From Rhynchopus sp. YZ270_cl-10 (taxonomy: Eukaryota), in the NCBI GenBank assembly GCA_964035575.1, contig OZ037833.1, forward strand, positions 2,914,001-2,976,000: a stretch of 62,000 nt of DNA, read 5' to 3'. The position numbers and the translations under genes were made by a program. Positions 39,991 to 56,915 of the stretch are shown here, piece by piece (the stretch's first letter is position 1; each line of letters starts with the position of its first letter). The notes under the pieces are model-generated. The model saw only the letters and a list, made by a program, of their open reading frames with translations, did no database searches and had not been told where the DNA came from.

Positions 39991-40279
39991 TTTTTAAACA
40001 AACAAACAAACCAAAACAAATGTGATCACACAAACCATCATGTTACCCAGTAAACCCAGTAAACCCAGCACACTGGTCTAGAGGGATCGACCACTGAGTG
40101 GTGACCTGTGAGCACACAGGCACCTGCTCCGATGCAGTAGTGCAGCGCACTAAGTGCTGTGCTAAGGACTGGCCAAACTTGTTAAACCTGCTGACCCACA
40201 AACCGGTTTTCACAACCGAAGCAAAAACAAGCTCAGAAATAAAAAGCTCTTCAAAGGTTTTCGAACCTGACTCAGTATT

Positions 40280-40398
40280 GGATTCGGCCATACTCTGGTG
40301 AATGCACCTCATCCCGCCTGATTTGAGAAGTTAAGCACCAGCAGGCCTGGATAGTACTGGCGTGGGTGACCAGCTGGGAAGTCCGGGTGCTTGAATCC
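40280..40398 (+). rRNA. 5S: 5S rRNA
   Basis: 119 nt, GGATTC/GAATCC terminal helix, A-box AGTTAAGC, C-box region, T-run. Confidence 0.97.
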
Positions 40399-40515
40399 TT
40401 TTTGCTTTTCTTCCGTGTTGGTGTGTGGTTTTAGGACATCCAGACCCTGACCCACCTCCAACAAGACAACCCTGTCTTGTATCCCTGTGTTTGTTGCACT
40501 ATCCAGAGAGCAGAA

Positions 40516-40910
40516 ATGAGGGGAGACTACACCACCGACGGTGCTTCAGCCTACAGGAGCATGCTGGAATGTGAATGCTGCATGACAGCATTCACAATTT
40601 CACCTTTGGTGAGATGGAGATGAGCGCAAAGGTGCAAAAATGCACAACAAAAACTGAGGAAGAGGCATCCATACTCCCCAGAAGGGACGTGCGCACCTGC
40701 AGCCAAAAATTCTCCTGTGCTTAATATCATGCGCGCTGGGGATGCCGAAATAGCTAAACTGTTGCAAGAAGTGGGACTAATTCCCAGGCAGTTGCCCTGT
40801 ACAACATGCAAGTCCACAATGCCAGAAACACTGTACTGGACACCAAGATACTCCAAGAAGATCGCAAACTGGCCTTATTTTAGGTGAAATGACCTAATGC
40901 AGAGTGCAGC
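40516..40910 (+). pseudogene. Possible decayed Merlin/IS1595-like transposase fragments
   Basis: YTTDGASAYRSML and LLQEVGLIPRQLPCTTCKSTM...YFR* in short broken frames. Confidence 0.35.
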
Positions 40911-41034
40911 GGAACAGGGGAGACAAATAAAGTTTCCTGTACCATGCAACACCCAAGACCTTTTGCACAAGTGAAGCAAAAACAAGCTCAGAAATATAAA
41001 GCTCTTCAAAGGTTTTCCACCCAGACCCATTATT

Positions 41035-41153
41035 GGATTCGGCCATACTCTGGTGAATACACCTCATCCCGCCTGATTTGAGAAGTTAAGCACCAGCAGG
41101 CCTGGATAGTACTGGCGTGGGTGACCAGCTGGGAAGTCCGGGTGCTTGAATCC
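41035..41153 (+). rRNA. 5S: 5S rRNA
   Basis: As 40280-40398. Confidence 0.97.
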
Positions 41154-41236
41154 TTTTTTCCTTATTTGTGGTGTAACACACAGAAGTTGGTTGAAAAGTG
41201 AACTGATAGTATTCAGCGCAAAGCATGATTATTGAA

Positions 41237-41308
41237 GGGTATATAGCTCAGTGGTAGAGCATTCGGCTGCAGTCCGAACGGTCCCTGGTTCGAACCCGGG
41301 TGTGCCCT
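41237..41308 (+). tRNA. tRNA-Cys(GCA)
   Basis: Cloverleaf; loop CT GCA GT. Confidence 0.95.
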
Positions 41309-41409
41309 CTCTTTTTGTTTCAAGACCAGATTTTCTCTTGAGTGTTACTTCTCCCTTTTTGGTTTTGAATTCCATCCCCACCTTGTAAAGATTCGTTTAA
41401 GAAATGTAA

Positions 41410-41482
41410 GGGGGTTTAGCTCAAATGGTAGAGCGCTCGCTCAGCATGCGAGAGGTAGAGGGATCGATACCCTCAATCTCCA
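41410..41482 (+). tRNA. tRNA-Ala(AGC), C33
   Basis: G3:U70; loop TC AGC AT. Confidence 0.95.
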
Positions 41483-41573
41483 AACATTTTTTGGCTTGGA
41501 AACACTGTTGTGATATTTCCAGATCTCGATTCTTTTTGGTACCAAAGAAAAAGAAGGAAGCGACAGAATTGTA

Positions 41574-41645
41574 TCTCCTATGGTGTAGTGGTTAGCACTC
41601 GAGACTCTGAATCTCGCGACCGCGGTTCGAATCCGCGTAGGAGAA
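41574..41645 (+). tRNA. tRNA-Gln(CTG)
   Basis: Loop CT CTG AA. Confidence 0.95.
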
Positions 41646-41738
41646 CTTTCCTTTTTCTCCGTTTCGTCCCTTGTTATTCTCCTCTGTGACTGGTTGAAAC
41701 GCATTCCCACTTCCATATTCTTGTTGGCTTTTATTGAA

Positions 41739-41820
41739 GGCGAGATGGCCGAGTGGTCTAAGGCGCCAGGTTAAGGCCCTGGTCCCTTCGGGGGCGTGGG
41801 TTCAAACCCCACTCTCGTCA
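41739..41820 (+). tRNA. tRNA-Leu(AAG)
   Basis: Loop TT AAG GC, long variable arm. Confidence 0.95.
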
Positions 41821-41909
41821 CTTGTTATTCTTTTTCATTTTCATTTTCAATCTATCCCTTTTGTTTTGTTTTCAAGATTGTGCAAAACACAAAAAGCACA
41901 CTTGTCAGG

Positions 41910-41982
41910 TCCTCCTTGGCGCAGTCGGTAGCGCGTCAGGCTGTTAACCTGCAGGTCGTTGGTTCGAACCCAACAGGAGGAG
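41910..41982 (+). tRNA. tRNA-Asn(GTT)
   Basis: Loop CT GTT AA. Confidence 0.95.
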
Positions 41983-42041
41983 ACTTTTTTCCCTTCTCAA
42001 ACCATTTTCTGTTCTTTGCAAAAGTCATAAAAAACTGGGAA

Positions 42042-43119
42042 GGCGAGATGGCCGAGCGGTCTAAGGCGCCAGGTTTAGGGCCAGTCGGGCGCACAGCGCA
42101 GACCCCATTATGGGCGCACAGCACACCCCCTCATTATGGGCGCACAGCGCACATGTGTGCTGTGCGCCCATAATGAGGGGGTGTGCTGTGCGCCCATAAT
42201 GGGGTCTGCGCTGTGCGCCCATAATAGGGAGGTGTGCTGTGCGCCCATAACGGAGAGCCTGTTCTGTGCGCCCATAATGGACTGGTGTGCTGTGCGCCAA
42301 TAATGGGGGGGGGTACCCTTTGAGCCATACTGGAGACATGTGATATGTGATAGACACTTAACTGGTGGGTGGGTGCGGGTGCACGGGAACCTACAGGTTC
42401 TAGGTTGCGTTATCTGGCTGGTGTGGTTGTGCGGGTGTGCGGGGTTCGGGCAACGTTATCCGGCTGGTGTGGTGGTGCGGGTTTGCGGGGTTCGGCACAC
42501 GTTATCTGGTTCGTGTGGTTAAAAAGCTGGCTGGTGGGTGCGGGTGCGCGGGAACCTGCTGGTTCGAGGTTGCGTTATCCGGCTGGTGGTTGTGCGGGTT
42601 TGCGGGTTGACGGGTGCGCGGGTTTGCGGTCCCTAGCTGGTTCGTGTGGTTGTGCGGGTGCGCGGGGTTCGGGCAACGTTATCCGGCTGGTGTGGTTGTG
42701 CGGGTTTGCGGGGTTCGGGCAACGTTATCTGGTTCGTGTGGTCAATAAGCTGGCTGGTGGGTGCGGGTGCGCGGGAACCTGCTGGTTCTAGGTTGCGTTA
42801 TCTGGCTGGTGGGTGCGGGTGCTCGGGACCTACTAGTTCTAGGTTGCCTAAGCCGGCTGGTGTGTTCTGTGCGCCCATAATGGGGGGGGTGTGCTGTGCG
42901 CCCATATCGGAGGGCCTGTTCTGTGCGCCCATAATGAGGAGGTGTGCTGTGCGCCCATAATGGGGTCTGCGCTGTGCGCCCATATTGGGGGGGTGTGCTG
43001 TGCGCCCATAATGAGGGGGTGTGCTGTGCGCCCATAATGGGGTCTGCGCTGTGCGCCCGACATACCAGGTTTAGGCCCTGGTCTCTTCGGAGGCGTGGGT
43101 TCAAACCCCACTCTCGTCA
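42042..43119 (+). tRNA. tRNA-Leu(TAG) split by a ~1-kb insertion in the anticodon loop
   Basis: 5' half 42042-42079 and 3' half 43076-43119 rejoin to a perfect cloverleaf. Confidence 0.88.
42079..43066. mobile_element. Non-autonomous TIR element (Merlin-like MITE), 988 bp
   Basis: 8-bp TSD AGGTTTAG (42071-42078, 43067-43074); TIRs GG...GTCGGGCGCACAGC; subterminal CTGTGCGCCCATAAT repeats. Confidence 0.88.
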
Positions 43120-43183
43120 CGTTATTACCATTTTTCCGCAGAAAACCCACCTCTTGTGGAAAACAGTTCCGGTCATTATTGTA

Positions 43184-43256
43184 GCAGCTATCGTCTAGTG
43201 GTTAGGACGCTCGCCTCACACGCGAGAGATCGTCGGTTCAATCCCGACTAGCTGTA
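43184..43256 (+). tRNA. tRNA-Val(CAC)
   Basis: Loop CT CAC AC. Confidence 0.95.
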
Positions 43257-43346
43257 ATTTCTTTTTGAACTTTCCTTCACATTTTCGTTCAATGCAACGA
43301 TCGAAAAGATGTCCCCATGCAGATAATAGTTTTGCCTACTATCAGA

Positions 43347-43418
43347 TCCGCTGTAGTATAGTGGTTAGAACAGCCGGCTCTCACCCGGCAGACCGGGGTT
43401 CAATTCCCCGCAGCGGAA
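43347..43418 (+). tRNA. tRNA-Glu(CTC)
   Basis: Loop CT CTC AC. Confidence 0.95.
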
Positions 43419-43512
43419 AATACCTTTTTTTAGACCAAGTTTTGGAGAGAAGAATTTCTGACTTTTGAATATTAACGCCATCATGTAAATCTGGATGAAG
43501 AAAATAATCAGT

Positions 43513-43584
43513 GGCTTAGTGGTCTAGTGGCATGATTCTCGCTTCGGGTGCGAGAGGTCCAGGGTTCGATTCCCTGCTGAGCCC
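43513..43584 (+). tRNA. tRNA-Pro(CGG)
   Basis: Loop TT CGG GT. Confidence 0.95.
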
Positions 43585-43798
43585 CTCTTTTTATTTAGGT
43601 AGTTTCTTGCTTGGGAATTGTTTAGAAAAATTATTTCCACATCTTTTCGACCACCAAAATCCCAAGATGAAGAAGTTTGGAAAAGTGCATTTTTGTGAAA
43701 GTATTTTGCCATATCTTTGTTGTCACCAAAATCCCAAGATGGTGAGAGAATCTTGAAAAATCATTTTCCATATTTTCACTTCCCAGTGAAAAAGAGAA

Positions 43799-43871
43799 TA
43801 CCCATGGTGGGGATCGAACCCACAATCTTTCGCTTAGGAAGCGAACGCCTTATCCATTGGGCTACACGGGC
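43799..43871 (-). tRNA. tRNA-Arg(CCT)
   Basis: Loop TT CCT AA. Confidence 0.95.
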
Positions 43872-43977
43872 CTAATAGTTTTACCTTCTTTCCTTTTCTC
43901 TGGGGTGGTCAAATTTAGGACAAGAGACTTTTCTGCATGACCACCCCACAATGATTCTTTGGTTTAAATGAATGTGA

Positions 43978-44050
43978 GCCTCCCTAGCTCAGTCGGTAGA
44001 GCGCAAGGCCCTTAACCTTGTGGTCGCGGGTTCGAGCCCCGCGGGAGGTG
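43978..44050 (+). tRNA. tRNA-Lys(CTT), C33
   Basis: Loop CC CTT AA. Confidence 0.95.
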
Positions 44051-44369
44051 CTTTTCTTTTTGAATGTTCACGATTTTGCAGGTTTCTGAGATTTTGAGGC
44101 AAATGAAAACCAAAAAATATTTCCTCCACTTGATCTCAGTTCTGTTTCGTTGGCAAGTTGAGAGTGGAATTTGGGTGAAAATATGTGTTTTCCGAACCAA
44201 CACAGGACTCCCACCGACCGGTGTAGGTTTTGCGTTCAACCAGGTGTGAACTGCTTCCACTCGCGAAAAGTGCCAGACCCTTTTGCTGGGGATAGCACGT
44301 TTCAGCCCCACAACTTATCTCCTTTCTGGGCATGTCCAGTGTGCTCAGCTGCCGCTTCTTGGCGACTCA

Positions 44370-44759
44370 CCAGTACAGAATGGTGGAATCCAGCACAGAA
44401 TGGAATGGCTGGGAAATCCTTAGCAATCCATAATTCAGATGGAAAAACTCCTGACCTGGCTATTGAATTTTCGGATCATTTTCTCAGTCACAATGCAAGC
44501 ACAGAATGGAAACCAAAACCAAGCACAGAATGGAACACGGCTATAAGACTCCAGCCATTCCATTCTGTGCTGGTTTTTCGTTTCCATTCTGTGCTTGCAT
44601 TGTGACTGAGAAAATGATCTGAAAATTCAATACCCGGGTCAGGAGTTTTTTTTTCCACTCCTAACAAATCCTTACAGTAAGCCTATAAGTCTCCAGCCAT
44701 TCCATTCTGTGCTGGTTTTTGGAGCCCATTCTGTGAGCACTCGCTCGGGCCTGTACTGG
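44370..44759. repeat. Foldback palindrome built from CACAGAATGG / CCATTCTGTG units (MITE-like)
   Basis: About 44443-44535 is inverted at 44558-44650; ends CCAGTACAG / CTGTACTGG. Confidence 0.75.
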
Positions 44760-44868
44760 AGTATAGCGGCCAGGCCATCTCCCTTCTGCGTTCCTGCCTG
44801 TCACATCCAGTGCTCAGTTGCTGCTTCTTCAGCACAACCGCATCACATCACATCACCAAAAAATAGAA

Positions 44869-44940
44869 AGGCAACTGGGGGGATCGAACCCCCGACCCTT
44901 GGTTTACAAGACCAATGCTCTGCCACTGAGCTAAATCGCC
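44869..44940 (-). tRNA. tRNA-Thr(TGT)
   Basis: Loop CT TGT AA. Confidence 0.95.
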
Positions 44941-45022
44941 GCTGATTAAGATGCTTTTGCTGTTTCTCCTGCGAAGAAGTTTTTCAAGACAACACAGAAA
45001 GGAAAGTGTGTAAAAAAAGAAA

Positions 45023-45093
45023 TGACCCTAGACGGAATCGAACCGCCGTTGATGGATTTGGAATCCATAGTGCTACCGCTACACCATAGGGCC
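45023..45093 (-). tRNA. tRNA-Trp(CCA) with a Gln-like body
   Basis: Loop TT CCA AA. Confidence 0.9.
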
Positions 45094-45178
45094 CATGATT
45101 TAGGGCTTCAATGCGTTTAGCATGAAGGTGGAAATTTTGCTGAAAATCCCACACAAAGGAAAAAGACACACAAAAAAG

Positions 45179-45251
45179 TGCGAGGTGCCAGGATCGAACT
45201 GACGACCTTAGGATTATGGGACCTACGCGCTCCCGACTGCGCCAACCTCGC
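45179..45251 (-). tRNA. Elongator tRNA-Met(CAT), C33
   Basis: Loop CC CAT AA, U31.U39. Confidence 0.93.
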
Positions 45252-45375
45252 CTTGATATTATCGTATCATTAAGAAATACATGGGGTGCAAATTTCTACA
45301 GGTTTGTGTGGCAAAAAAATTTTTTTGAGCCAAAAAATTTTATGGGCTTCTGTGAAAACAATGACAGTTGTAGAA

Positions 45376-45459
45376 CCTCTCGTAGCTCAATTGGTAGAGC
45401 GCTCGACTGTAGAATACTCGGTTATCGAGCGGTCGCTGGTTCGATTCCGGCCGAGAGGA
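45376..45459 (+). tRNA. tRNA-Tyr(GTA) with an 11-nt intron (45413-45423)
   Basis: CT GTA G|AATACTCGGTT|A. Confidence 0.95.
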
Positions 45460-45536
45460 TTTTTTTCATTTTCGTGTTCCAGGTTATATTCTTCAAACAG
45501 ATGACTGCCTAAAAACAAAGAACGGTGAGAATTACA

Positions 45537-45618
45537 GCAGTCGTATCCAAGTGGTTACGGAGGTGGACTAGAAATCCATTGGGCTCTGCCCGCGCAGGTT
45601 CAAGTCCTGCCGACTGCG
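45537..45618 (+). tRNA. tRNA-Ser(AGA)
   Basis: Loop CT AGA AA. Confidence 0.95.
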
Positions 45619-45716
45619 ATTCATTTTTTGTTCACAAATTTTCGTGCATTTTCGTCGTTTCTGTGCTCATTTTAGACCATTTTGATGCGCGAAAATAAAT
45701 CAGAGTGAAGATTGTA

Positions 45717-45788
45717 TCCTCGGTAGTATAGAGGTCAGTATTTCCGCCTGTCACGCGGAAGACCCGGGTTCAATTCCCGGCCGGGGAA
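45717..45788 (+). tRNA. tRNA-Asp(GTC)
   Basis: Loop CT GTC AC. Confidence 0.95.
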
Positions 45789-45850
45789 TTCTTTTTTGTA
45801 CAGGGCTCCCACTCATTGTTTCGTTTCTTTTCTGATGAAAATCAAATCAG

Positions 45851-45923
45851 GCCCCGTTGGCGCAATGGATAGCGCGTTGGACTTCGAATCCAAAGGTTGC
45901 GGGTTCGAGTCCCGCACGGGGTT
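45851..45923 (+). tRNA. tRNA-Arg(TCG)
   Basis: Loop CT TCG AA. Confidence 0.95.
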
Positions 45924-46194
45924 AACTTTTTGAACATTGTTTTTTTTGAACTTTTTTGAAAACACAAAAAAGTGAGGTTGGTGTCAAGTGAAATCACAGT
46001 GGAACAACAGATACAAATTTGGGTCCAGTGGGAAGGGGTCTCCCAGGAATTTTGGATTTTTTGGCAGTCAACCCATCCAGAAGAACCTTAAAAAATCTTG
46101 GGAAAAACTTGAAAACTGGAAATTCTTTGAAAAGCTGACATTTCAGAATTTTTTTCTGAACATGAAAATTTTACTTCCTCCTAAAAAAAAGAAC

Positions 46195-46266
46195 TGCACT
46201 TACCGGGAGTCGAACCCGGGCCGCTCGCTTGGAAGGCGAGAATACTAACCGTTATACCATAAGTGC
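46195..46266 (-). tRNA. tRNA-Gly(TCC)
   Basis: Loop CT TCC AA. Confidence 0.95.
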
Positions 46267-46355
46267 TGTTACTTTCATGCAAAGTGTTTTCTTTGTGGGG
46301 GGCAATTTCAAAATAAAAAAAATTTGAAATTGTTCAAATTGCCCAAAAAAAGAAG

Positions 46356-46427
46356 CAACCGTGGCAGGACTCGAACCTGCAACCGCCTGATCCGTGGTCA
46401 GGCGCTCTTCCATTGAGCCACACGGTC
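46356..46427 (-). tRNA. tRNA-Arg(ACG), C33
   Basis: Loop CC ACG GA. Confidence 0.95.
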
Positions 46428-46514
46428 CATGTCTTTAGGCAATAGTATTTTTTATGTGGCCTGCATATTTTTGGAGTTGGAAAAAATGAAAATGGTTGAT
46501 TGCACAGCTAAAAA

Positions 46515-46586
46515 AGCGGTTACCGAGAATTGAACTCGGGTCTCCCGTGCCACAAACGGGTGTTCTAACCACTAAACCATAACCGC
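46515..46586 (-). tRNA. tRNA-His(GTG)
   Basis: Loop TT GTG GC; U73, no encoded G-1. Confidence 0.95.
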
Positions 46587-46702
46587 TTGAATATTCCCAC
46601 TTATTGGGATCTCAGAAAGGGTTTTATTTCCTGGGATATTGTGAAATATTTTTCAAACATGCAACGAGCGGCAACTCGAGCACAATTTCGACTAATATCG
46701 TA

Positions 46703-46773
46703 GCGTAATTGGTCTAGTGGTAGAATGGCCCCCCGCCACGGGGTCGGCCCGGGTTCGATTCCCGGATTACGCA
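46703..46773 (+). tRNA. tRNA-Gly(GCC), C33
   Basis: Loop CC GCC AC. Confidence 0.95.
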
Positions 46774-47126
46774 CTCTCTTTTTGCGTTTGGCAAAAGCAA
46801 AACAATATGTTTCGGACAGTTTCAGGTCGGTCACAAACTCGTTCAAAACGAAAAAGTGGAAATGATATGTACTCTTTCTTGCGTAAGGATTATTAGTAGA
46901 GAAAAAAATTTCTTGTCTGATGATACGGGTTTTTGCTCGACATAGTTTGCGAGTAAGTCAGTTCGGTCACAACTTCCATCACAATTGCAAAAAAAATTGG
47001 GACTACAACATGTTCATAAACCCAACCTGACTTACATGTTTATTTCTTCACAAAATTCCCAGTAAATAAACATGCACATCAGTATGGCCGGTGCGCTGGT
47101 CAGAGACATCACGTTTGCGGGCCAAC

Positions 47127-47545
47127 CCCTCTGTGCGCCCGATTAGGAACCCCCCTGTGCGCCCGATTAGCTTACCCCCCTGTGCGCCCGATTAGGGACC
47201 CCCCTGTGCGCCCGGTTAGCTTTACCCCCCTGTGCGCCCGATTAGGAATATCCCCCTGTGCGCCCGATTAGGAACCACTCTGTGCACCTACCTAGTCACT
47301 GTGACCAGGTGCCCCTACTAATATGCCTTACCAATATGGCCTGGGCTGTGGTATGTCGGGTGTACTACATGCTGGGACCTAAAGAGGAACCACATGCTGG
47401 AACACGGCTTTAAGCCCCCACCCATTTCAGCTGTGGTTCCTACTGTGCCCAGTCACTGTGACCAGGTGCCTGGTCAGATCTGACCAGGTACCCTTACTAA
47501 TATGCCTGACCAATATGGCCAGGGGTGGTATGTCGGGTGCACAAG
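47127..47545. mobile_element. Remnant of the same TIR family: CTGTGCGCCCGATTAG repeats and GGTATGTCGGG ends
   Basis: Motifs shared with 42079-43066. Confidence 0.6.
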
Positions 47546-47770
47546 GGAGTTTCACGATGGGTTATCTTATGCACAGGTACAGTGGATGTAGAAAACCCAC
47601 AAACCCATTGTGTGTGGGTTTTCTGGCATAGGACTGTATGGAAAGTGCACGGGTCCACCACAGTACAACCAGTCATGCACCAAGGGACACTGGCTGTTTT
47701 ATCACTTTTTGAACTTTTTTAGACACTGCCAAACCTTCTCCATAATCTGAGATCTTGGGAAACAAGATAA

Positions 47771-47842
47771 GCTCGCGTGGCGCAATGGAAGCGCGTCGGT
47801 TCCCGACGCCGGAGGTTGCGGGTTCGATCCCCGCCGCGAGTA
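47771..47842 (+). tRNA. tRNA-Arg(CCG), C33
   Basis: Loop TC CCG AC. Confidence 0.9.
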
Positions 47843-47979
47843 CTTTTTATTCATTCCAAAATATTTTTAGATTTCCTTCTTCTCAGAGATTTCTTGTCAC
47901 AAAACTTTGCCAAATTGAAAATTCAGAAATGCGAAAATATCAAAAAACAGCTCCGAAATTTGAAAGCAATCAAAAAGGA

Positions 47980-48051
47980 TTCCCCCTCCGGGGTTTGAAC
48001 CCGGGTCGCCTGGGTGAAAGCCAGGTATACTAACCACTGTACTAAAGGGGA
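47980..48051 (-). tRNA. tRNA-Glu(TTC)
   Basis: Loop CT TTC AC. Confidence 0.95.
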
Positions 48052-48149
48052 GGTGATACTTAGGCACAATCCAAAAAGGGTACTTTTGTGCAAGCTACAC
48101 GGAGTTTCAAACGAAAAAAAAAATTAAAAATGAAAATCCAAAAAGACAA

Positions 48150-48221
48150 GGGCTCGGCGGGGAATTGAACCCCGGACCTCTCGCACCCTAAGCGAGAATC
48201 ATGCCACTAGACCACCGAGCC
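48150..48221 (-). tRNA. tRNA-Pro(AGG)
   Basis: Loop TT AGG GT. Confidence 0.95.
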
Positions 48222-48335
48222 ACGAATTCTCTCGCATTCTCTTCGTAACGCGGCCATATGTTTCCATCATTCCTTGTGTGTGTTTTCGTTTTGAATAAGG
48301 TCCCCATGTAAATGCTGTCTTCGCTAACAATCAGA

Positions 48336-48408
48336 TCCTCCTTGGCGCAGTCGGTAGCGCGTCAGGCTGTTAACCTGCAGGTCGTTGGTTCGAACCCAAC
48401 AGGAGGAG
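48336..48408 (+). tRNA. tRNA-Asn(GTT), copy 2
   Basis: Identical to 41910-41982. Confidence 0.95.
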
Positions 48409-48664
48409 ATTTTTCATTTTTTTGAGTTTTTGACTCTATTTTTTAATTTTGAGCTAAAAATCCACATTGTGTGTCATCTTGATGTTGGAACTATTTTTCA
48501 GGATTTCCAAGGTTGTCCCACCAAAAAAACCAAACATCTTTGGATGCTGACATAACTTGAAGATTCTTGACCTGAAGATAAAACAGATTTTGTCAGGTTT
48601 TTTTATTGAGTTTGAAAAAGTTCAGAACAGAATGAAAAAAGGGATCGATGCAGTGTATAAAAAA

Positions 48665-48746
48665 CGCGAACGGCAAGGTTCGAACTTGCGCATGCAGAGC
48701 ACACTCGCTTAGCAGGCGAGCCCCGTAACCACTTGGGTACGTCCGC
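48665..48746 (-). tRNA. tRNA-Ser(GCT)
   Basis: Loop CT GCT AA. Confidence 0.95.
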
Positions 48747-48965
48747 TTAATTACCTGTCAGTACTTAGGACGAAGCTTGTACTTTGTTTAACGACACGTT
48801 AGTGATCACTTGCGTGGTCACCAAAAATCATCGCAATTGTGACCACCAAAAAAAATTTTTGGGCACGATTTCGCACGATGGCGGGCTCATTGCACGACGG
48901 CCGACACACCATGTTTTCTCACAAATAAAAAAAATCCAGAAAAATTCAGGTATCAATACAAAAAG

Positions 48966-49038
48966 CACCTCCCGCGGGGCTCGAACCCGCGACCACAAGG
49001 TTAAGGGCCTTGCGCTCTACCGACTGAGCTAGGGAGGC
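48966..49038 (-). tRNA. tRNA-Lys(CTT), copy 2, C33
   Basis: Identical to 43978-44050. Confidence 0.95.
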
Positions 49039-49140
49039 TCATATTAACTTAAATCAAAGAATCAACATGGGGTACTTGTGTGTACCTGCAGCCACCAAAT
49101 TTTCCATCGTTGTTGCGTGAACAAAAGGATCCGGATTATC

Positions 49141-49212
49141 TCTCCTATGGTGTAGTGGTTAGCACCCTGGACTTTGAATCCAGTAGCCGCGGTTCAAACC
49201 CGCGTGGGAGAA
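49141..49212 (+). tRNA. tRNA-Gln(TTG)
   Basis: Loop CT TTG AA. Confidence 0.95.
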
Positions 49213-49327
49213 CTTTTCTTTTTCCAAGTGTTTTCAATATTTTTTGGAGCTTTGTCACACACATCTTCAATCTTTGCATTTGATGGCAAAAACATAAATC
49301 ACAGAAATCAAACGAAAAGGTAAAGAA

Positions 49328-49409
49328 CGCTGACGGCAGGGTTCGAACCTGCGCGGGCAGAGCCCAGTGGATTTCAAGTCCACCTCCGTAACCACTTGGA
49401 TACGTCAGC
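49328..49409 (-). tRNA. tRNA-Ser(TGA)
   Basis: Loop CT TGA AA. Confidence 0.95.
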
Positions 49410-49486
49410 ATAGTTGAGGAAGTACAACGCCCCAGATCCTGAAAATGGGCACAAAAAAGAGAATCCAATCGATCCAAAAAAGTAGG

Positions 49487-49558
49487 CACCCGCCGTGGGG
49501 ATCGAACCCACGACCATTGGATTAAAAGTCCAACGCTCTACCGCTGAGCTAGGCGGGC
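49487..49558 (-). tRNA. tRNA-Lys(TTT)
   Basis: Loop CT TTT AA. Confidence 0.95.
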
Positions 49559-49673
49559 ATTCGTTTTAAAGGAAAGAGTCAATTTCAAGGCTTGTTCAGT
49601 TCTTGAAAAAAAACTGACAAAAAAGACGAACAGAACGTGCCCCAAGTACCTCTCCTTGAGGGACATTTATCAG

Positions 49674-49745
49674 GGGCGTTTAGCTCAGTGGTAGAGCGCC
49701 CGTTCTGCATACGGGAGGCCGAGGGTTCGAACCCCTCAATGTCCA
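49674..49745 (+). tRNA. tRNA-Ala(TGC), C33
   Basis: G3:U70; loop TC TGC AT. Confidence 0.95.
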
Positions 49746-49837
49746 TTTTTTTGCCATATTTTGTTGATTATTTTTTGGTTGGGCCAGTCAAACACACAAA
49801 AATATGAACTGACATCATTGTGCAGTGCCTGCGATGA

Positions 49838-50435
49838 GGATGTGTGTGATGGTCCAATTGGCGAGTCTGACCTCATAATGCGTTCAGGAACATCCAAATG
49901 ACCCATTTTCCCAACGTTTTCACATTTTTGAGCATTTTGCTATTACGCAATAGTGGTACAATAGGCATTTTACTGGGTCATTTTAACCAACTCTATCAGG
50001 ACACTTCTGATGCTCCAATTGGCGATTCTGACCTCATAATGGCTTCATGAGCAGCCGAATAACCCGTTTTCCCAATATTTTCACATTTTTGAACGTTTTG
50101 CCATTCGTGGAATGGTGGCACAAAAGTCATTTTAGTGGGTCATTTTCGCCAACTCGATCAGGGCACTTCTGGTGCTCCAATTTGCGGTTCTGACCTCATA
50201 ATGGATTCAAGAGCACCCAAATAACCCATTTTCCCAACGTTTTCACATTTTAGACTATTTTTGCTATTGCGGAATGGCAGTACAATAGGCAGTTTACTGG
50301 GTCATTTTCGCCAACTCGATCAGGATACTTCTGATGCTCTAATCACATCGTTTAACCTCATAATGCATTCAGGAGCACCCAAATAACCCATTTTCCCAAT
50401 GTTTTCGCATTTTTGACCACTTTGCTGTTGCAGAG
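49838..50435. repeat. Degenerate GATGCTCCAATT..GACCTCATAATG repeat array; related arrays near 29670-30370, 35040-35440, 53010-53590 and, inverted, 55440-56890
   Basis: Recurrent motif with roughly 120-165 bp period. Confidence 0.8.
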
Positions 50436-50530
50436 TATCAGTAAGATGAGGTCATGCAAATACAGTTTTGTGCACAATAGAAAAAAATAGTGTGTACCCC
50501 AGCTTGGCGATTCCTTTCGTCATTATTGTC

Positions 50531-50603
50531 GGTCGTGTAGCTCAGTCGGTAGAGCATTGGTCTAATAAGCCAACGGTCCCAGGTTCGAGCCCTGTCACGA
50601 CCA
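50531..50603 (+). tRNA. tRNA-Ile(AAT)
   Basis: Loop CT AAT AA. Confidence 0.95.
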
Positions 50604-50683
50604 ATACTTTTTCTACTACTTTGACTTTGACCTGTTGTCAAAAAATGTTGGCCGTGTAAAAAATATGCATACCCTAAAACAAG

Positions 50684-50690
50684 GCCTCTT

Positions 50691-50739
<49 letters not shown>

Positions 50740-50756
50740 AATCCCAGGTGGAGGCA
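50684..50756 (+). tRNA. tRNA-Phe(GAA)
   Basis: Loop CT GAA GA. Confidence 0.95.
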
Positions 50757-50867
50757 CTTCTCTTTTTTCCCCTCAACTCTAATAACAATTTTCAAGGTGC
50801 GCTGTGCTACTACATTGGAAAAGTGCGCTGTGCTACTACATCCCAATTTTTTGGACGAAAATTTTTT

Positions 50868-50980
50868 GGTATGTCGGGCGCACAGCTCAGACCCCGATAT
50901 GGGCGCACAGAACACCCCCCCATTGTGGGCGCACAGAACAGGCCCTCCGTTGTGGGCGCACAGCTCACTGTGTGCTGTGC
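50868..50980. mobile_element. Solo end of the Merlin-like MITE family
   Basis: GGTATGTCGGGCGCACAG terminus plus subterminal repeats. Confidence 0.7.
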
Positions 50981-51400
50981 AAGTTTCAGCATATGGCTTC
51001 TGGCAACAAAAACTTAAAAAAAAATTTTGGCCGAAAATTATTTTTTGGCCTGCAATCAAGTTGAGCTGAGATGCTATGTAACATGTAAGTCAGTCTGTTT
51101 CATGTTTCCGCTGATCAAAGTTCGTTCGAGATGGAAAGGACTGAAAAGGAAGCACATGTGGAAAAGGAAGCACATGTGGAAATGTTAAGGAATCCCCACC
51201 CATTTCCGCATGTGCTTCCGGCAACAAAAACTGATTGCTCCGGGATTTGATTTTGGTACCATTTTTCACCAAATCCAAAAAAATTGGCAGAGTAGCACAG
51301 CCGCAAACGTTAGCATTATGACACGTGTTTGCGGATGTGCTCTCACCCCCAAAAAAAATGGGCAATACAAGGCCAAAAAACAAATGCACAAAAAGAAGTG

Positions 51401-51474
51401 TACACCTATCCGGGTTTGAACCGGAGACCTCCTCGGTGTTAACGAGGCGTCATAACCAACTAGACCATAGGTGC
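51401..51474 (-). tRNA. tRNA-Val(AAC)
   Basis: Loop TT AAC AC. Confidence 0.95.
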
Positions 51475-51595
51475 TGACATTTATATGGTTCATAGAAACG
51501 AGATGGTGTGTGCATTCACCGCCCAAAACCGAAAACTGTGTCAAAATAAAAAAAAATTTGGACAGAAGAAAATGGGAATATGGGTACAAAACGAA

Positions 51596-51667
51596 GGCTT
51601 AGTGGTCTAGTGGCATGATTCTCGCTTTGGGTGCGAGAGGTCCAGGGTTCGATTCCCTGCTGAGCCC
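51596..51667 (+). tRNA. tRNA-Pro(TGG)
   Basis: Loop TT TGG GT. Confidence 0.95.
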
Positions 51668-51774
51668 CTCTTTTTTTCAAGTTTTTGTGTCACAGATTTT
51701 TTGTCAGAAAAATAAATTGTGAAAAAAACTGATCCCTTGAAAAATTGATTCTGGACAACAGAAGGAAAAAAGTG

Positions 51775-51856
51775 TGACAGGAGTGGGGTTTGAACCCACG
51801 CCTCCGAAGAGAAAGGAACTTGAGTCCTCCGCCTTAGACCTCTCGGCCATCCTGCC
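51775..51856 (-). tRNA. tRNA-Leu(CAA)
   Basis: Loop CT CAA GT. Confidence 0.95.
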
Positions 51857-51958
51857 TTGCCAACAGATTTATATTAGAAATGAAATGAGAACGATGAGAA
51901 AGGACAACCAAAACGGAGCAAAAGGAAAAACAGAAGAAAACACAACACATAAAAAGAG

Positions 51959-52030
51959 TTCCCCGGCCGGGAATTGAACCCGGGTCTTCCGCGTGACAGG
52001 CGGAAATACTGACCTCTATACTACCGAGGA
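51959..52030 (-). tRNA. tRNA-Asp(GTC), copy 2
   Basis: Identical to 45717-45788. Confidence 0.95.
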
Positions 52031-52118
52031 TACAATGAAGCCTGTTTTTAAAAAGAATGCGTCCAGAGAAAGTCTTCAATCGCACCGGATCTGAAAAATA
52101 AAAAACAAAGAAAAGAAT

Positions 52119-52191
52119 TACCCCATGTGGGACTCGAACCCACAACCTTTGGATTAGAAGTCCAACGCGCTATCCATTGCGCCAATGGGGC
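52119..52191 (-). tRNA. tRNA-Arg(TCT)
   Basis: Loop CT TCT AA. Confidence 0.95.
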
Positions 52192-52283
52192 TTGTTTCAT
52201 ATTCTTTTCTCGTTTTAAGGAAGTGTCCCTTCATGGTCAACAACACCTGTAAAAAATTGTGAAGGAAATTCAAAAATGAAAAG

Positions 52284-52356
52284 TACAACTAGCTGGGATT
52301 GAACCAGCGATCTTCCGCGTGTAAGGCGGACGTCCTAACCACTAGACGATAGCTGC
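52284..52356 (-). tRNA. tRNA-Val(TAC)
   Basis: Loop CT TAC AC. Confidence 0.95.
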
Positions 52357-52457
52357 CCAAACTTAGTGAGATGTTGGCAAGGGTCTGACCAACTTTTTTT
52401 TGGTGTTCAAAAAATTTTTTTCAAGTCAAAAAAATGGGTTCACTGAAAAAGGTTTTC

Positions 52458-52530
52458 TAGCAGAGATAGGTTTCGATCCTATGACCTGTGGGTTATGAGC
52501 CCACCGCGCTGACCACTGCGCCACTCTGCT
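52458..52530 (-). tRNA. Initiator tRNA-Met(CAT)
   Basis: A1:U72, three G-C pairs in the anticodon stem, A54/A60. Confidence 0.95.
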
Positions 52531-52580
52531 TCTAATTACTTCCAACGATGTTTTCTACATGCCCAGCTTAAAAAAGGCTA

Positions 52581-52651
52581 TGCGACCGCCGGGAATCGAA
52601 CCCGGGTCGAACCCTTGGGAGGGGTCCATCATGCCACTAGACCACGGTCGC
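52581..52651 (-). tRNA. tRNA-Gly(CCC)
   Basis: Loop CT CCC AA. Confidence 0.95.
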
Positions 52652-52677
52652 CTTATCAAGGGATAAAAGGGCTCGAC

Positions 52678-52750
52678 GCTCTCGTGGCCTAGTGGTTAAG
52701 GCACAGGTCTTATGAGCCTGGGATCGCGGGTTCAAACCCCGCCGGGAGCA
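52678..52750 (+). tRNA. tRNA-Ile(TAT), intronless
   Basis: Loop CT TAT GA. Confidence 0.93.
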
Positions 52751-52830
52751 AAGCCTTTTTTTGTTCAGTGAATCATGTTCATTCCTCCTGCTCGTTTCAT
52801 GACTCCTCCAGAAGTTGCAAAGGAACAGTA

Positions 52831-52912
52831 GCGGACGTATCCAAGTGGTTACGGAGGTGCACTCGAAATGCATTGGGCTCTGCCCGCGCAGGTTCAAATC
52901 CTGCCGTCCGCG
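52831..52912 (+). tRNA. tRNA-Ser(CGA)
   Basis: Identical to 29510-29591. Confidence 0.95.
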
Positions 52913-53642
52913 TTATTGTCTTTTTGCTGTGTAGGGGGAACCCTGTACATTCCATACATCTCAAATAGCCCAAATAAATTTTCACTGGGAGTAAGTGATT
53001 AGGGCTGATTAGGGATGTGTGATGCTCCAATTTGCGGTTACGACTTCATAATGGATTCAGGAGCATCCAAACATCCCATTTTCCCGTTAGTTTCCCATTT
53101 TTGACGATCTGGCTATTGCAGAATAGAGGTGAAAATGACATTTTGCTGGGTCATTTTCGCGAACTCGATTAGGGCACTTCTGATGCTCTAATTTGCGGTT
53201 ACAACCTCATAATGAATTCAGGAGCATCCGAATGACCCATTATCCCAACGTTTTCACATTTTGGACGATCTTGCTATTGCGGAGTATCCGGTGGAAAATC
53301 GGAAAATTCCATGTGTACCGTGTTTCACTGGGAGTAAGTGATTAGGACATGTGTGATGCTCCAATTTGCGGTTCCGACCTCATGATGGCTTCAGGAGCAT
53401 CCAAATAACCCGTTTTCCCAACGTTTTCGCATTTTTGACCAGTTGGGCTGTTGCGGAATAGCAGGTAAAAACGGTCATTTTGGCCACCTCAATTAGGGCA
53501 CTTCTGATGCTCCAATCAAATCGTCCGACCTCATAATGGGTTCGGGAGCACCCAAATAACACATATTCCCAACGTTTTCGCGTTTTTGATCCTGTGTGAG
53601 CAATCCAGAACAACTTTCTGCTTCAGTAAAAAAAAGTAAAAA

Positions 53643-53761
53643 GGATTCAAGCACCCGGACTTCCCAGCTGGTCACCCACGCCAGTACTATCCAGGCCTGC
53701 TGGTGCTTAACTTCTCAAATCAGGCGGGATGAGGTGTATTCACCAGAGTATGGCCGAATCC
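53643..53761 (-). rRNA. 5S: 5S rRNA
   Basis: Reverse complement of the plus-strand copies. Confidence 0.97.
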
Positions 53762-53845
53762 AATACTGAGTCATGATGGACAACATGTGAACAGGTTGTT
53801 TGTGACCTAACAACGAACCAGAAATAGGACAGCGAACAAAAAACA

Positions 53846-53918
53846 AGGCACTAGAGGGGATCGAACCCTCGACCTCTCGCTTACTGGGCGAGCGCTCTAA
53901 CCACTGAGCTATAGCGCC
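53846..53918 (-). tRNA. tRNA-Thr(AGT), C33
   Basis: Loop CC AGT AA. Confidence 0.95.
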
Positions 53919-54039
53919 ATGCTTTCTCTCCATCTTCTTTTCTTTGAAGGGGGTCTTTTGAAATGTACAGAGCACGCATCAAAAATTTCCTTCATACCTC
54001 CGCGATGGTGAAAAAATTTTTAACGAAGGAGCCTAGTAA

Positions 54040-54121
54040 GGCGAGGTGGCCGAGTGGTCTAAGGCGCTACGTTCAGGTCGTAGTCTCTTCGGGGGCGTGA
54101 GTTCAAACCTCACCCTCGTCA
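54040..54121 (+). tRNA. tRNA-Leu(CAG)
   Basis: Loop TT CAG GT. Confidence 0.95.
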
Positions 54122-54199
54122 CTTTTTCTTCGTTGTGTGATCACTTAAAAGCCTATTTCGGCCCAAAGCTTGTTGTTTTAAAGAAGCATCATAATTGTG

Positions 54200-54271
54200 G
54201 GGCTCTTAGCTCAGTGGAAGAGCGCCCGTTCCGCATACGGGAGGCCGAGAGTTCGAACCTCTCAGGGTCCA
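54200..54271 (+). tRNA. tRNA-Ala(CGC), C33
   Basis: G3:U70; loop TC CGC AT. Confidence 0.95.
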
Positions 54272-54348
54272 CAGTTTTTTTTTCCCCTGTTTTGTTTCTC
54301 CTGTGTAAATTGGTTCTCAGAGCTTTCACACCTTGCTCCCTAAAATGT

Positions 54349-54420
54349 GGCTGTTTAGCTCAGTGGTAGAGCACATCATCCGTAATGATGGGGTCGTGGG
54401 TTCAATCCCCACAGCGGCCT
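54349..54420 (+). tRNA. tRNA-Thr(CGT), C33
   Basis: Loop TC CGT AA. Confidence 0.95.
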
Positions 54421-54527
54421 AGGTTTTTTTCAGAGCTCCCCAAGAATTTCCAACCTAACTTGGGGTTTGTGGGTTTGCGGTCACTGGTGCACACATGGCC
54501 TGTGGACGGGCAGGGACAAAAAAAATT

Positions 54528-54857
54528 GGGTGCTTGCGTTGTGTGCTGGATCGGGACCACCAGTAAACTGGCAATCCCACATCCAGTTCTAATATTTGAA
54601 GTGTGAAATAGAACGCAATCGGAAGATTAGTTTACACGAATGTAAGAATAATATCGTCATGGTAATATTCTGTACAGATTGTACGGGATTTACTATCATA
54701 TGAGAGTAGTCCGTCGCAGGCCACATCGGGCCCGCAACATGACCGGTCTTCACACAAAATTGTAAAAGAATTTTCCTTGGAAAAAATGTCTTTTTCAAGT
54801 TTTTGTTGTTGCTGAACGAGTTGTTTGGTTTCGAAGTAGCACACTAACTTAGCACCC
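54528..54857 (-). ncRNA. Unidentified ~330-nt structured RNA ('RNA X'), copy 2
   Basis: Diverged paralog of 38050-38374; class-A element at 54881-54916, again at -59. Confidence 0.75.
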
Positions 54858-54967
54858 AAACATGCAGCAAACATCGGAATACAAGACAGGGTCGTCTTGT
54901 TGGAGGTGGGTCAGGGTCTGGACATCCTCAAATGTGCACACCTAATACAACAGAAGAAAAGGAAAAA

Positions 54968-55086
54968 GGATTCAAGCACCCGGACTTCCCAGCTGGTCAC
55001 CCACGCCAGTACTATCCAGGCCTGCTGGTGCTTAACTTCTCAAATCAGGCGGGATGAGGTGTATTCACCAGAGTATGGCCGAATCC
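54968..55086 (-). rRNA. 5S: 5S rRNA
   Basis: Reverse complement of the plus-strand copies. Confidence 0.97.
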
Positions 55087-55093
55087 AATAATA

Positions 55094-55232
55094 GGTCTGG
55101 ATAGAAAAGCTGGGAAGACTTATTACCAGTCCGTTTTTACCTGAGAAGTTAGACACCTCCAAGCCTGGATAGTACTGGCGCGGGTGACCAACTGGATAAA
55201 TACACCGAAAAATAGATCTAAATTGTCAGACC
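55094..55232 (+). ncRNA. 5S-derived variant RNA or pseudogene retaining the internal control region
   Basis: TGAGAAGTTAGACACC..GCCTGGATAGTACTGGCGCGGGTGACCA at 55142-55190; new terminal stem GGTCTG/CAGACC. Confidence 0.5.
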
Positions 55233-56915
55233 GGTTCTTAGCTGTGCGCATCCATAAAAAACTAAAAAAATACTTGCGTCAGAAAATCCTAGTGTGTTGT
55301 ACCGTGGTCCGATATTCTTTCGGTCCCGGGTTCAACACCTGAGACAGATAATATATTTTGACTTTTTCAGATTTTTCTCATTTTTTTGTCTCCTCACTCT
55401 TTCTGAGAATCTTCAAAATTGTCAAAAGTGAGAAATTTTTGGGAAAATGGCATATTTAGGGGCTCCTGAATCCATTATGAGGTCAGATGAATCAATCTGA
55501 GCATCACACATATCCTAATAGACAAAATGTCCGTTTATCAAAATACCTGAAAATGCCTCTTTATCCTATCTAAGGATGTCAGAAACCCTTAAAAGTGCAA
55601 AAATCTTGGGAATATAGGGTTTTTGGGCCATTCTGAATCCATTGCGGGGTCGGACGATTTGATTGGAGCATCAGAAGTATCCTAATCGGTAAAATGTCGC
55701 AAAAATATGGGCAAAATGCCTTTATACCCTATCTAAGCAATTAGAATGTGCTCTAAAACGCAAAAATCTTGGGAATATGGGGTTTTTGGGCACATCTGAG
55801 TTCATTGCGGGGTCGTACGATCAGATCTGAGCATCACATAATGTCTAGAATTTTACAGGTGCAACAAACACCTGTATTTTGGTGTAACATGCATATAACC
55901 ATATCTGAATACCTTAAATTTGCACGAAAATGCAAAAATCTTGGGAATATGGGTTTTTTGGGCACATCTGAGTCAATTGCGGGGTCGCACGATCAGATCC
56001 GAGCATCACACAATACCTAGAATTTCAACTATGCAATAAACATGTCTATTTTGGGTAAAATGGCTAATAACCACATGTAAGTAGCTTAAAAATGCTCTAA
56101 AATGCAATAATCTTGGGAATATGGGGTTTTTGGGCACATTTGAGTTCATTGCGGGGTCGCACGATCAGATCCGAGTATCACACAATGTCTAGAATTTCAA
56201 AAAAGCAACAATCACATGTATTTTGGTGTAAAATGCATATAACCATATCTGAATGTCTCAAATACGCATGAAAATGAAGTAATCTTGGGTATATAGGGTT
56301 TTTGGGCACATCTGAGTCAATTGCGGGGTCGTACGGTCAGATCCGAGCATCAGACAATGTCTAGAATTTTAGCTATGCAACAAACACCTGTATATTGGGT
56401 AAAATGGCTAATAATCATATCTAAATGGCTCATATATGCTCGAAAATGCAAAAATCTTGGGAATGTGGGGTTTTTGGGCATTTTTGAGTCAATTGCGGGG
56501 TCGTACGATCAGATTAGAGCATCACACAATGTCTCAAATTTTACAGGTGCAACAAACACCTGTATTTTGGTGTAACATGCAAACAACCATATCTAAATAC
56601 CTCAAATTTGCACGAAAATGAAGAAATCTTGGGTATATAGGGTTTTTGGGCCAATCTGAGTCAATTGCGGGGTCGCACGGTCAATTCCGAGTATCAGGCC
56701 CTCTCTACAACTTAGCCGGTGCTCAAACATAGGGGTTACAGGCAAATATACCTGTACACAGGCATATGACCTCTGTACGTACCTTCTTTTCACTCGAAAA
56801 TGCAATTTTCTTGGGTATATGGGGTATTTGAGCACATCTGAGTCAATTGCGGGGTCGTACGCTCAGATCCGAGCATCACACACTGTCTAACTGAGAAATA
56901 TTTTGAAAAAAGTCG

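What the first reader, a model, noticed from the sequence alone, without database searches (positions are those of the whole stretch)
41410..54420. Ten tRNA species encode C33 instead of the near-invariant U33
Seen: Ala AGC/TGC/CGC, Arg ACG/CCG, Gly GCC, Lys CTT (both copies), elongator Met and Thr AGT/CGT have C 5' of the anticodon, while initiator Met keeps U33. These are the only genes for those anticodons in the unit and are otherwise intact. Known: U33 forms the anticodon U-turn; C33 is mostly limited to some eukaryotic initiator tRNAs; kinetoplastids do C-to-U editing at tRNA positions 32 and 34. Inference: a new C33-to-U editing or modification system, or a ribosome tolerant of C33 with tuned decoding.
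Basis: partly seen in the sequence, partly recalled or inferred. Interest (0 to 1): 0.8.

Follow-up and report, generated by a model that had tools for sequence, protein, structure and literature searches.

The report
Diplonemid tRNAs freed from invariant U33
In this protist, likely a diplonemid, and in its relatives, a fifth to a half of the tRNA genes carry C where nearly all tRNAs carry U just before the anticodon, and the letter flips between lineages in otherwise identical genes, likely because an as yet unseen editing enzyme restores the U.

Summary
Real, and wider than reported. 11 of 49 tRNA genes (10 of 45 species) in a 25.7-kb tandem unit of tRNA, snRNA, 5S, SRP and spliced-leader genes carry C33; all are intact. 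Another study's run keeps C at the three sites laid. A close relative has U33 in two of those three genes. Metagenome contigs found by the same type of spliced-leader gene hold 223 tRNA genes: 93 C33, 130 U33, no purine. The C33 set differs by lineage, and 35 of 46 tRNA species carry C33 somewhere. Two lineages that differ at 1.25% of other positions differ at position 33 in 12 of 34 orthologues. Ten other tRNA landmarks stay fixed. C33 occurs in Lys-UUU, Gln-UUG, Glu-UUC, His and Asp, whose modifying enzymes need U33 in other species. Best reading: broad C33-to-U editing, like archaeal C8-to-U8 editing (about 52%). Main rival: C33 is kept and tolerated (36%). No RNA data and no enzyme were found, so editing is not shown. 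The scan noted C33 earlier in phages and one archaeon.

The parts
41410..41482 (+). tRNA-Ala(AGC), C33 at 41442
43978..44051 (+). tRNA-Lys(CTT) copy 1, C33 at 44010
45178..45251 (-). elongator tRNA-Met(CAT), C33 at 45219
46355..46427 (-). tRNA-Arg(ACG), C33 at 46396; U33 in a close relative
46703..46774 (+). tRNA-Gly(GCC), C33 at 46734; U33 in a close relative
47771..47843 (+). tRNA-Arg(CCG), C33 at 47802; C33 also in the close relative, which has G37 instead of A37
48965..49038 (-). tRNA-Lys(CTT) copy 2, C33 at 49006
49674..49745 (+). tRNA-Ala(TGC), C33 at 49705; the only U34 species of 13 in the window with C33
53846..53918 (-). tRNA-Thr(AGT), C33 at 53886
54200..54272 (+). tRNA-Ala(CGC), C33 at 54231
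54349..54420 (+). tRNA-Thr(CGT), U32 and C33 (54380)
52458..52530 (-). initiator tRNA-Met, U33 (C33 in relative lineage B)
41237..54420 (.). cluster of 48 tRNA genes, 45 species, both strands; 37 of these genes have U33
35642..37855 (+). five spliced-leader RNA genes (two more at 61358 and 61792, in the next unit)
36751..39990 (.). U6, SRP RNA, U2, U4, U3-like, U5 and U1 genes of the same unit
40280..55086 (.). four 5S rRNA genes (40280, 41035, 53642, 54967)
31189..56904 (.). one period (25,716 bases) of the tandem unit; 31189-36284 recurs at 56905-62000 with 99.7% identity

Best explanation
The tRNA genes of this organism and its relatives encode either C or U at position 33, and a cytidine deaminase likely turns C33 into U33 in the transcripts, which would leave the mature tRNAs with the normal U-turn. 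Shown: intact genes with C33 in a tandem array; C or U but never a purine; the letter flips in both directions between lineages, often with no other change; the other landmarks stay fixed. Inferred: once a broad C33 deaminase exists, U-to-C mutations cost almost nothing, drift, and spread through the array by homogenisation. The cell then depends on the enzyme, as in Methanopyrus C8-to-U8 editing. Inferred and untested: the enzyme is an ADAT2/3-type or CDAT-type deaminase acting in the nucleus or cytosol, before Elongator, the queuine transglycosylase and KEOPS act.
For: (1) Position 33 is the most variable of 62 numbered positions: 41 parsimony changes against a median of 7, on a tree that I assumed. 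U8, A14, G18, G19, G53, U55, C56, A58 and C61 are fixed in 196 of 196 distinct sequences, and A21 in 195. (2) Lineages A and B differ at 26 of 2,074 other sites but at position 33 in 12 of 34 orthologues (p = 6e-15). The switches go 6 each way, and 7 of the 12 show no other difference at the positions compared. Positions 32, 37 and 38 differ in 0 of 34, so there is no compensation in the loop. One contig (L021) holds two Ala AGC copies that differ only at 33. (3) States agree between lineages no better than chance in all six pairs among A, B, C and the window (p 0.17 to 1.0). (4) C33 is in Lys-UUU, Gln-UUG and Glu-UUC in 3 of 3, 3 of 3 and 2 of 3 cases in lineages A, B and C, and in His or Asp in A and B. 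U33C abolishes Elongator modification in human and yeast assays (PMC11096365). Queuine insertion depends largely on U33-G34-U35 (PMC8136771). C33 blocks yeast and E. coli t6A synthesis (PMC8887486). Kept C33 needs several machines to relax; editing needs one new activity. (5) Precedent: 30 of 34 M. kandleri tRNA genes encode C8, restored by CDAT8 (PMC3695527). Trypanosomes edit C32 and C34, and D. papillatum has ADAT2, ADAT3 and a CDAT homologue.
Against: No RNA was seen and no enzyme was identified. C33 can work unedited: yeast tRNA-Leu(GAG) is barely impaired, and human and nematode KEOPS accept C33. In the window itself the U34 and Q34 species nearly all keep U33 (1 of 17 with C33 against 9 of 28, p = 0.064), which is what unedited C33 would predict. 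Species are not fully interchangeable: heterogeneity p = 0.04, and 8 of 42 well-sampled species never show C against 5.4 expected, p = 0.10. Lineage E has 0 of 8 C33 and lineage D 2 of 16. The gene-family tables of PMC10161547 that I searched name no diplonemid-gained tRNA deaminase among 8 'deaminase' hits; unannotated proteins would be missed.
Confidence: 0.52

Rival explanations
1. C33 stays in the mature tRNA and is tolerated. The diplonemid cytosolic and mitochondrial ribosomes and the loop-modifying enzymes would have relaxed their need for U33, so U and C drift nearly neutrally.
For: Yeast tRNA-Leu(GAG) with C33 works almost normally. Animal and plant initiator tRNAs carry C33 and their KEOPS accepts it. 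Sulfolobales tRNA-Cys has C33. In the window the Elongator and queuine substrates are largely spared (1 of 17). Only pyrimidines occur, which also fits a structural limit. Earlier scan notes report C33 in phage tRNAs, where no host editor is expected (not checked by me).
Against: In lineages A-C the U34 species are enriched for C33, not depleted (22 of 31 against 36 of 89; the lineages are related, so the p-value of 0.004 is overstated). These include split-box tRNAs that need a modified U34. All mitochondrial tRNAs are presumed imported, so two ribosomes must tolerate C33. No compensating change is seen at 32, 37 or 38.
Confidence: 0.36
2. C33 is kept and positively selected, either to hide tRNAs from anticodon nucleases of bacteria or viruses, or to tune decoding or wobble modification codon by codon.
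For: The site changes far faster than the rest of the tRNA. In lineages A-C the share of C33 rises with the length of the T-run that a T33 would make: 15 of 57, 23 of 38, 14 of 20, 5 of 5, so some context-dependent force acts. Scan notes propose nuclease evasion for phage C33 tRNAs (unchecked).
Against: The flips go both ways and follow no amino acid or codon class across lineages. Between two very close variants (L021 and L061, spacer transitions 33 of 297) position 33 changed in 0 of 14 genes, against 1.6 expected if neutral, so there is no sign of a faster-than-neutral rate. The T-run trend is absent in the window (rho 0.02). No nuclease was identified.
Confidence: 0.09
3. The C33 genes are sequencing errors or silent copies, and U33 genes elsewhere supply the tRNA pool.
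For: No whole genome was available, so unlinked, more divergent copies cannot be excluded. Traces of the U letter exist in run X6, one contig at each of two sites, under 0.1% of depth.
Against: C is fixed at the three sites laid in another study's run. The trait recurs in contigs from many separate metagenomes. C33 genes are as intact as U33 genes (16.95 against 16.87 of 17 stem pairs). They are the only copies in units that hold near-complete tRNA sets.
Confidence: 0.03

Closest known systems
CDAT8 C8-to-U8 tRNA editing of Methanopyrus kandleri (PMC3695527)
   Same: A near-universal uridine is encoded as C in many intact tRNA genes of one organism.
   Different: Position 8 in an archaeon, 30 of 34 genes, editing and enzyme proven. 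Here position 33 in a eukaryotic nucleus, 22-53% of species in the four well-sampled lineages, the set shifts between lineages, and editing is only inferred.
Trypanosoma brucei C32-to-U editing of tRNA-Thr(AGU) by ADAT2/3 with TRM140 (review passage in PMC7694415)
   Same: C-to-U change in the 5' side of the anticodon loop of a nuclear-encoded tRNA, in the sister group; D. papillatum has ADAT2 and ADAT3 homologues.
   Different: Position 32, described there for one threonine tRNA, via a methylated intermediate. Here position 32 is conserved between lineages and position 33 varies across 35 of 46 species.
Kinetoplastid mitochondrial C34-to-U editing of tRNA-Trp by mCDAT, with s2U33 (passages in PMC12699882, PMC7694415)
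   Same: Anticodon-loop cytidine deaminase of Euglenozoa; a homologue exists in D. papillatum.
   Different: One tRNA, wobble base, inside mitochondria, changes decoding. tRNA-Trp keeps U33 in all three lineages where I saw it.
Natural unedited C33 tRNAs: initiator Met of animals and plants, yeast tRNA-Leu(GAG), Sulfolobales tRNA-Cys, some echinoderm and hemichordate mitochondrial tRNAs (PMC8887486, bioRxiv 10.64898/2026.02.20.707122, PMC7668247, PMC6319601)
   Same: C at position 33 in a working tRNA.
   Different: One or two fixed species per organism. Here up to half of the set is affected, and the identity of the affected species is unstable.

Membership tests
Functional nuclear tRNA genes | Cloverleaf with intact stems and conserved D- and T-loop landmarks | tested here: met
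Functional nuclear tRNA genes | Pol III T-run terminator downstream | tested here: met
   11 of 11 C33 genes and 38 of 38 U33 genes
Functional nuclear tRNA genes | Expressed and charged | not testable with these tools
   no RNA holder listed
CDAT8-type restorative tRNA editing | Invariant U encoded as C in many intact tRNA genes, other landmarks kept | tested here: met
CDAT8-type restorative tRNA editing | Edited position is 8 | tested here: not met
   U8 in 196 of 196 sequences; it can work like CDAT8 editing but is not a member
CDAT8-type restorative tRNA editing | Mature tRNA carries U where the gene has C | not testable with these tools
   no RNA run was available to lay
CDAT8-type restorative tRNA editing | Dedicated cytidine deaminase acting on tRNA | tested here: inconclusive
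   no genome; published gene-family tables name none
Trypanosomatid ADAT2/3-TRM140 C32 editing | Target is C32 of tRNA-Thr | tested here: not met
   the variable site is 33, across most amino acids; 32 differs in 0 of 34 A-B pairs. Separate editing at 32 is not excluded
Trypanosomatid ADAT2/3-TRM140 C32 editing | ADAT2/3 and TRM140 present and active on C | not tested
   ADAT2 and ADAT3 homologues are reported for D. papillatum; not checked for this organism
Natural unedited C33 tRNAs | C33 persists in the mature tRNA | not testable with these tools
   needs RNA sequencing or mass spectrometry
Natural unedited C33 tRNAs | Confined to one or two fixed tRNA species | tested here: not met
   35 of 46 species carry C33 in some lineage
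Diplonemea (source organism) | Diplonemid-type spliced-leader gene linked to 5S and U2; no tRNA-Leu(UAA) gene | tested here: inconclusive
   The leader is three changes from an unnamed 'Euglenozoa 14' consensus; that this type is diplonemid is recalled. The linkage and the missing Leu-UAA match D. papillatum. A protein search gave no taxon name

The most novel reading that the evidence does not exclude
Diplonemids have a nuclear or cytosolic tRNA deaminase that converts C33 to U33 across most of the tRNA set. This would be the first eukaryotic counterpart of archaeal C8 editing and the first editing system for the U-turn base. It would have turned the most conserved anticodon-loop base into the most variable site of the tRNA genes, and could gate wobble modification.
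Probability: 0.5. Interest if true: 0.88.

Novelty: new variant of a known kind. Interest (0 to 1): 0.78.

Why it matters
U33 is the textbook invariant of the anticodon loop and a recognition element for Elongator, queuine insertion and some t6A enzymes. A lineage in which it flips freely is a natural experiment either way. If it is edited, there is a new broad tRNA deaminase with single-base precision inside a loop full of cytidines, and a case of editing arising by drift. If it is not edited, diplonemid ribosomes and modifying enzymes have dropped a near-universal requirement, which makes the question of why U33 is conserved directly testable with natural allele pairs that differ at this base alone. 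One RT-PCR or tRNA-seq experiment on a cultured diplonemid separates the two.

Tried and rejected
(1) My first reading, that C33 is kept and avoids Elongator substrates, came from the window alone (1 of 13 U34 species against 9 of 32, p = 0.24). It fails in lineages A-C, where U34 species are enriched. (2) A register error in loop numbering: rejected by stem pairing and alignment (the last row is a Phe gene that I mislabelled as initiator Met and did not use). (3) Faster-than-neutral change at 33: not supported. (4) RNA evidence: no RNA holder listed among 24 runs; this says nothing on expression. (5) No whole genome is held, so no enzyme search or genome-wide tRNA count was possible. (6) Two tRNA patterns found nothing in viral contigs and one found nothing in metagenome contigs. 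(7) The trypanosomatid tRNA survey PMC2695483 has no occurrence of C33, U33 or 'position 33', and the first part of each of its two supplements holds no tRNA bodies, so I have no kinetoplastid outgroup from a call. (8) Single-strand folding of six C33 genes was only weakly informative (z -1.1 to -2.4). (9) A homologue search with the protein at 499-2214 gave no taxon name. (10) Scan notes by place, sequence and diplonemid words were empty. (11) Of the 62 spliced-leader loci, 49 held no tRNA gene and were dropped; two small ones (L026, L062) and the near-duplicates L053 and L061 were left out of the lineage statistics.
Full report
Observation. ARAGORN finds 49 tRNA genes in the window. Initiator Met has U33. 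The loops are 7 bases on 4-5 pair stems, Rfam scores are 54-67 bits, stem pairing equals that of the U33 genes, and all have T-run terminators. No U33 version of these arms is in the window. Against a 3% background the count has p = 7e-7.

Setting. The cluster lies in a tandem unit of 25,716 bases that also holds spliced-leader genes, U1, U2, U4, U5, U6, a U3-like gene, SRP RNA and four 5S genes. The leader is three changes from an unnamed euglenozoan consensus in PMC3795323 (passage); that this type is diplonemid is recalled. The leader-5S-U2 linkage and the lack of tRNA-Leu(UAA) match D. papillatum (PMC10161547, passages). I therefore call the source a likely diplonemid; no tool named it.

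Is it an error? I laid 4 of the 24 listed runs on 46150-47900, which holds 3 of the 11 C33 genes. X6, from another study than the best holder and covering all 30 bins, keeps C: the other letter is 44 of 58,908 and 23 of 104,589 depth units at two sites, and no difference is listed at the third. X20, X18 and X16 cover only tRNA bodies and share flanks or contig lengths, so I count them as one related organism. It has U33 in Arg ACG and Gly GCC and keeps C33 in Arg CCG. Two of the four differences listed for it fall on position 33. Its contigs run on into flanking sequence, so the U is genomic there, not editing.

Relatives. A scan of metagenome contigs for the spliced-leader gene motif gave 62 loci; 13 hold tRNA genes, 223 in all, with 93 C33, 130 U33 and no purine. 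Their identity as diplonemids rests on the leader gene on the same contig. I grouped them into lineages A (L021, L013), B (L036, L029, L048), C (L055, L020), D (L046) and E (L010). C33 species number 19 of 43 (plus one with both states), 15 of 34, 23 of 43, 2 of 16 and 0 of 8, against 10 of 45 in the window. Across 196 distinct sequences U8, A14, G18, G19, G53, U55, C56, A58 and C61 never vary, and A21 varies once. Position 33 is the most variable of 62 positions, 41 changes against a median of 7, on an assumed tree. A and B differ at 1.25% of other sites but at 33 in 12 of 34 orthologues, 6 each way, 7 with no other difference at the positions compared, which leave out the variable arm. Thirty-five of 46 species carry C33 somewhere. 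Asn, Phe, Tyr, Trp, Gln CTG, Gly CCC, Ser GCT and Val CAC never did, which is not clearly more than chance (p = 0.10). The rate looks neutral, not faster: A and B have unalignable spacers and shuffled gene order, and two close variants show 0 changes in 14 genes against 1.6 expected.

How it most likely works. The data show that selection on the gene no longer tells U33 from C33. Two routes lead there. If C33 stays, several machines must have relaxed. Elongator loses activity on U33C tRNA in vitro and in yeast (PMC11096365, passages), yet Lys-UUU, Gln-UUG and Glu-UUC carry C33 in 8 of 9 cases in A-C. Queuine insertion depends largely on U33-G34-U35 (PMC8136771, passages), yet His and Asp flip. 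C33 blocks yeast and E. coli t6A synthesis, though not human or nematode (PMC8887486, passages). Cytosolic tRNAs are presumed to serve the mitochondrial ribosome too (PMC12699882, passages). If C33 is deaminated, one new activity explains all of this. The precedent is M. kandleri, where 30 of 34 genes encode C8 and CDAT8 restores U8 (PMC3695527, passages), and Euglenozoa already edit positions 32 and 34 (PMC7694415 and PMC12699882, passages). I put editing at 0.52.

Against it. Nothing here shows editing. Yeast tRNA-Leu(GAG) works with C33 (bioRxiv 10.64898/2026.02.20.707122, passages), and older substitution experiments found U33 not essential (recalled). In the window, U34 and Q34 species are nearly all spared (1 of 17 against 9 of 28, p = 0.064), as tolerance with intact enzymes would predict, although lineages A-C show the opposite. 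In A-C, C33 rises with the T-run that T33 would create. That could be selection against Pol III pausing, a context preference of an editor, or mutation bias, and it is absent in the window. Lineages A-C are related, so pooled p-values are overstated. Tolerance gets 0.36, positive selection for a kept C33 0.09, and artefact 0.03.

What is known. Reviews treat C33 as a rare exception (PMC9023262, PMC5041475, PMC7668247, PMC6319601; passages). I found no report for diplonemids. One search (Diplonema, tRNA, cytidine, position 33) gave 0 papers. In one search every diplonemid paper among the 40 listed of 3,093 had zero C33, U33 or T33. The listings showed none by title or abstract start. The passages seen from PMC10161547 discuss the tRNA set without position 33; its Additional file 1, with a section on structural RNAs, was too large to read and may bear on this. 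Subscription journals were not searched. Its gene-family tables list an expansion of a THUMP-domain family in diplonemids but no gained tRNA deaminase. The known diplonemid mitochondrial deaminases are a CDAT homologue and PPRD1 (bioRxiv 10.64898/2026.09.04.749523, passages); neither is tied to position 33. PMC2695483 was seen as abstract, passages and the first part of each of its two supplements. Earlier scan notes report C33 in phage tRNA arrays and in one archaeon; I did not check them.

Verdict. It works most like CDAT8 editing but fails membership (position 33, not 8). Novelty: new variant of a known kind. Interest 0.78: surprising whichever mechanism holds, and decided by one RNA experiment.

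Noticed in passing
window 42042-43120: The only tRNA-Leu(TAG) gene of the unit is split in its anticodon loop by an element of about 1 kb with 69-base terminal inverted arms and a short duplicated target. No Leu(TAA) gene is present, so how UUA and CUA are read is open.
   Followed up: partly
L021 1-5554 and L055 350-5750: Both near-complete tRNA units have Ile(GAT) in place of Ile(AAT) and lack Leu(TAG), Leu(TAA) and Val(TAC). Ile(GAT) is unusual for a eukaryote (recalled).
   Followed up: partly
window 31189-56904; L021, L036, L055: Almost the whole set of tRNA, snRNA, 5S, SRP and spliced-leader genes sits in one unit, 25.7 kb and tandem here and 5-7 kb in relatives, with gene order fully shuffled between lineages whose tRNAs are 99% alike.
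   Followed up: partly
window 47806: tRNA-Arg(CCG) has A37 here and G37 in the close relative and in the metagenome lineages.
   Followed up: no
window 54349-54420 and 43799-43871: Thr(CGT) and Arg(CCT) have U32, although C32 is reported as required for t6A37 by eukaryotic KEOPS.
   Followed up: no
window 6625-15966 and 17285-24286: Two long reverse-transcriptase ORFs of non-LTR retroelements, one with an OTU-like domain, just upstream of the array; likely CRE/SLACS-like (recalled).
   Followed up: no
window 499-2214: ORF with a sialic-acid acetylesterase-type, an Ig-like and a laminin-G domain; close copies at 92-95% identity and distant unnamed hits at about 37%.
   Followed up: partly
window 29510-29591: Isolated tRNA-Ser(CGA) copy at the left edge of the array, matching 52831-52912: a partial unit.
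   Followed up: no
L011: Contig with the same spliced leader as the window and U2 at 97.9% identity: a closer relative, but without tRNA genes on the contig.
   Followed up: no
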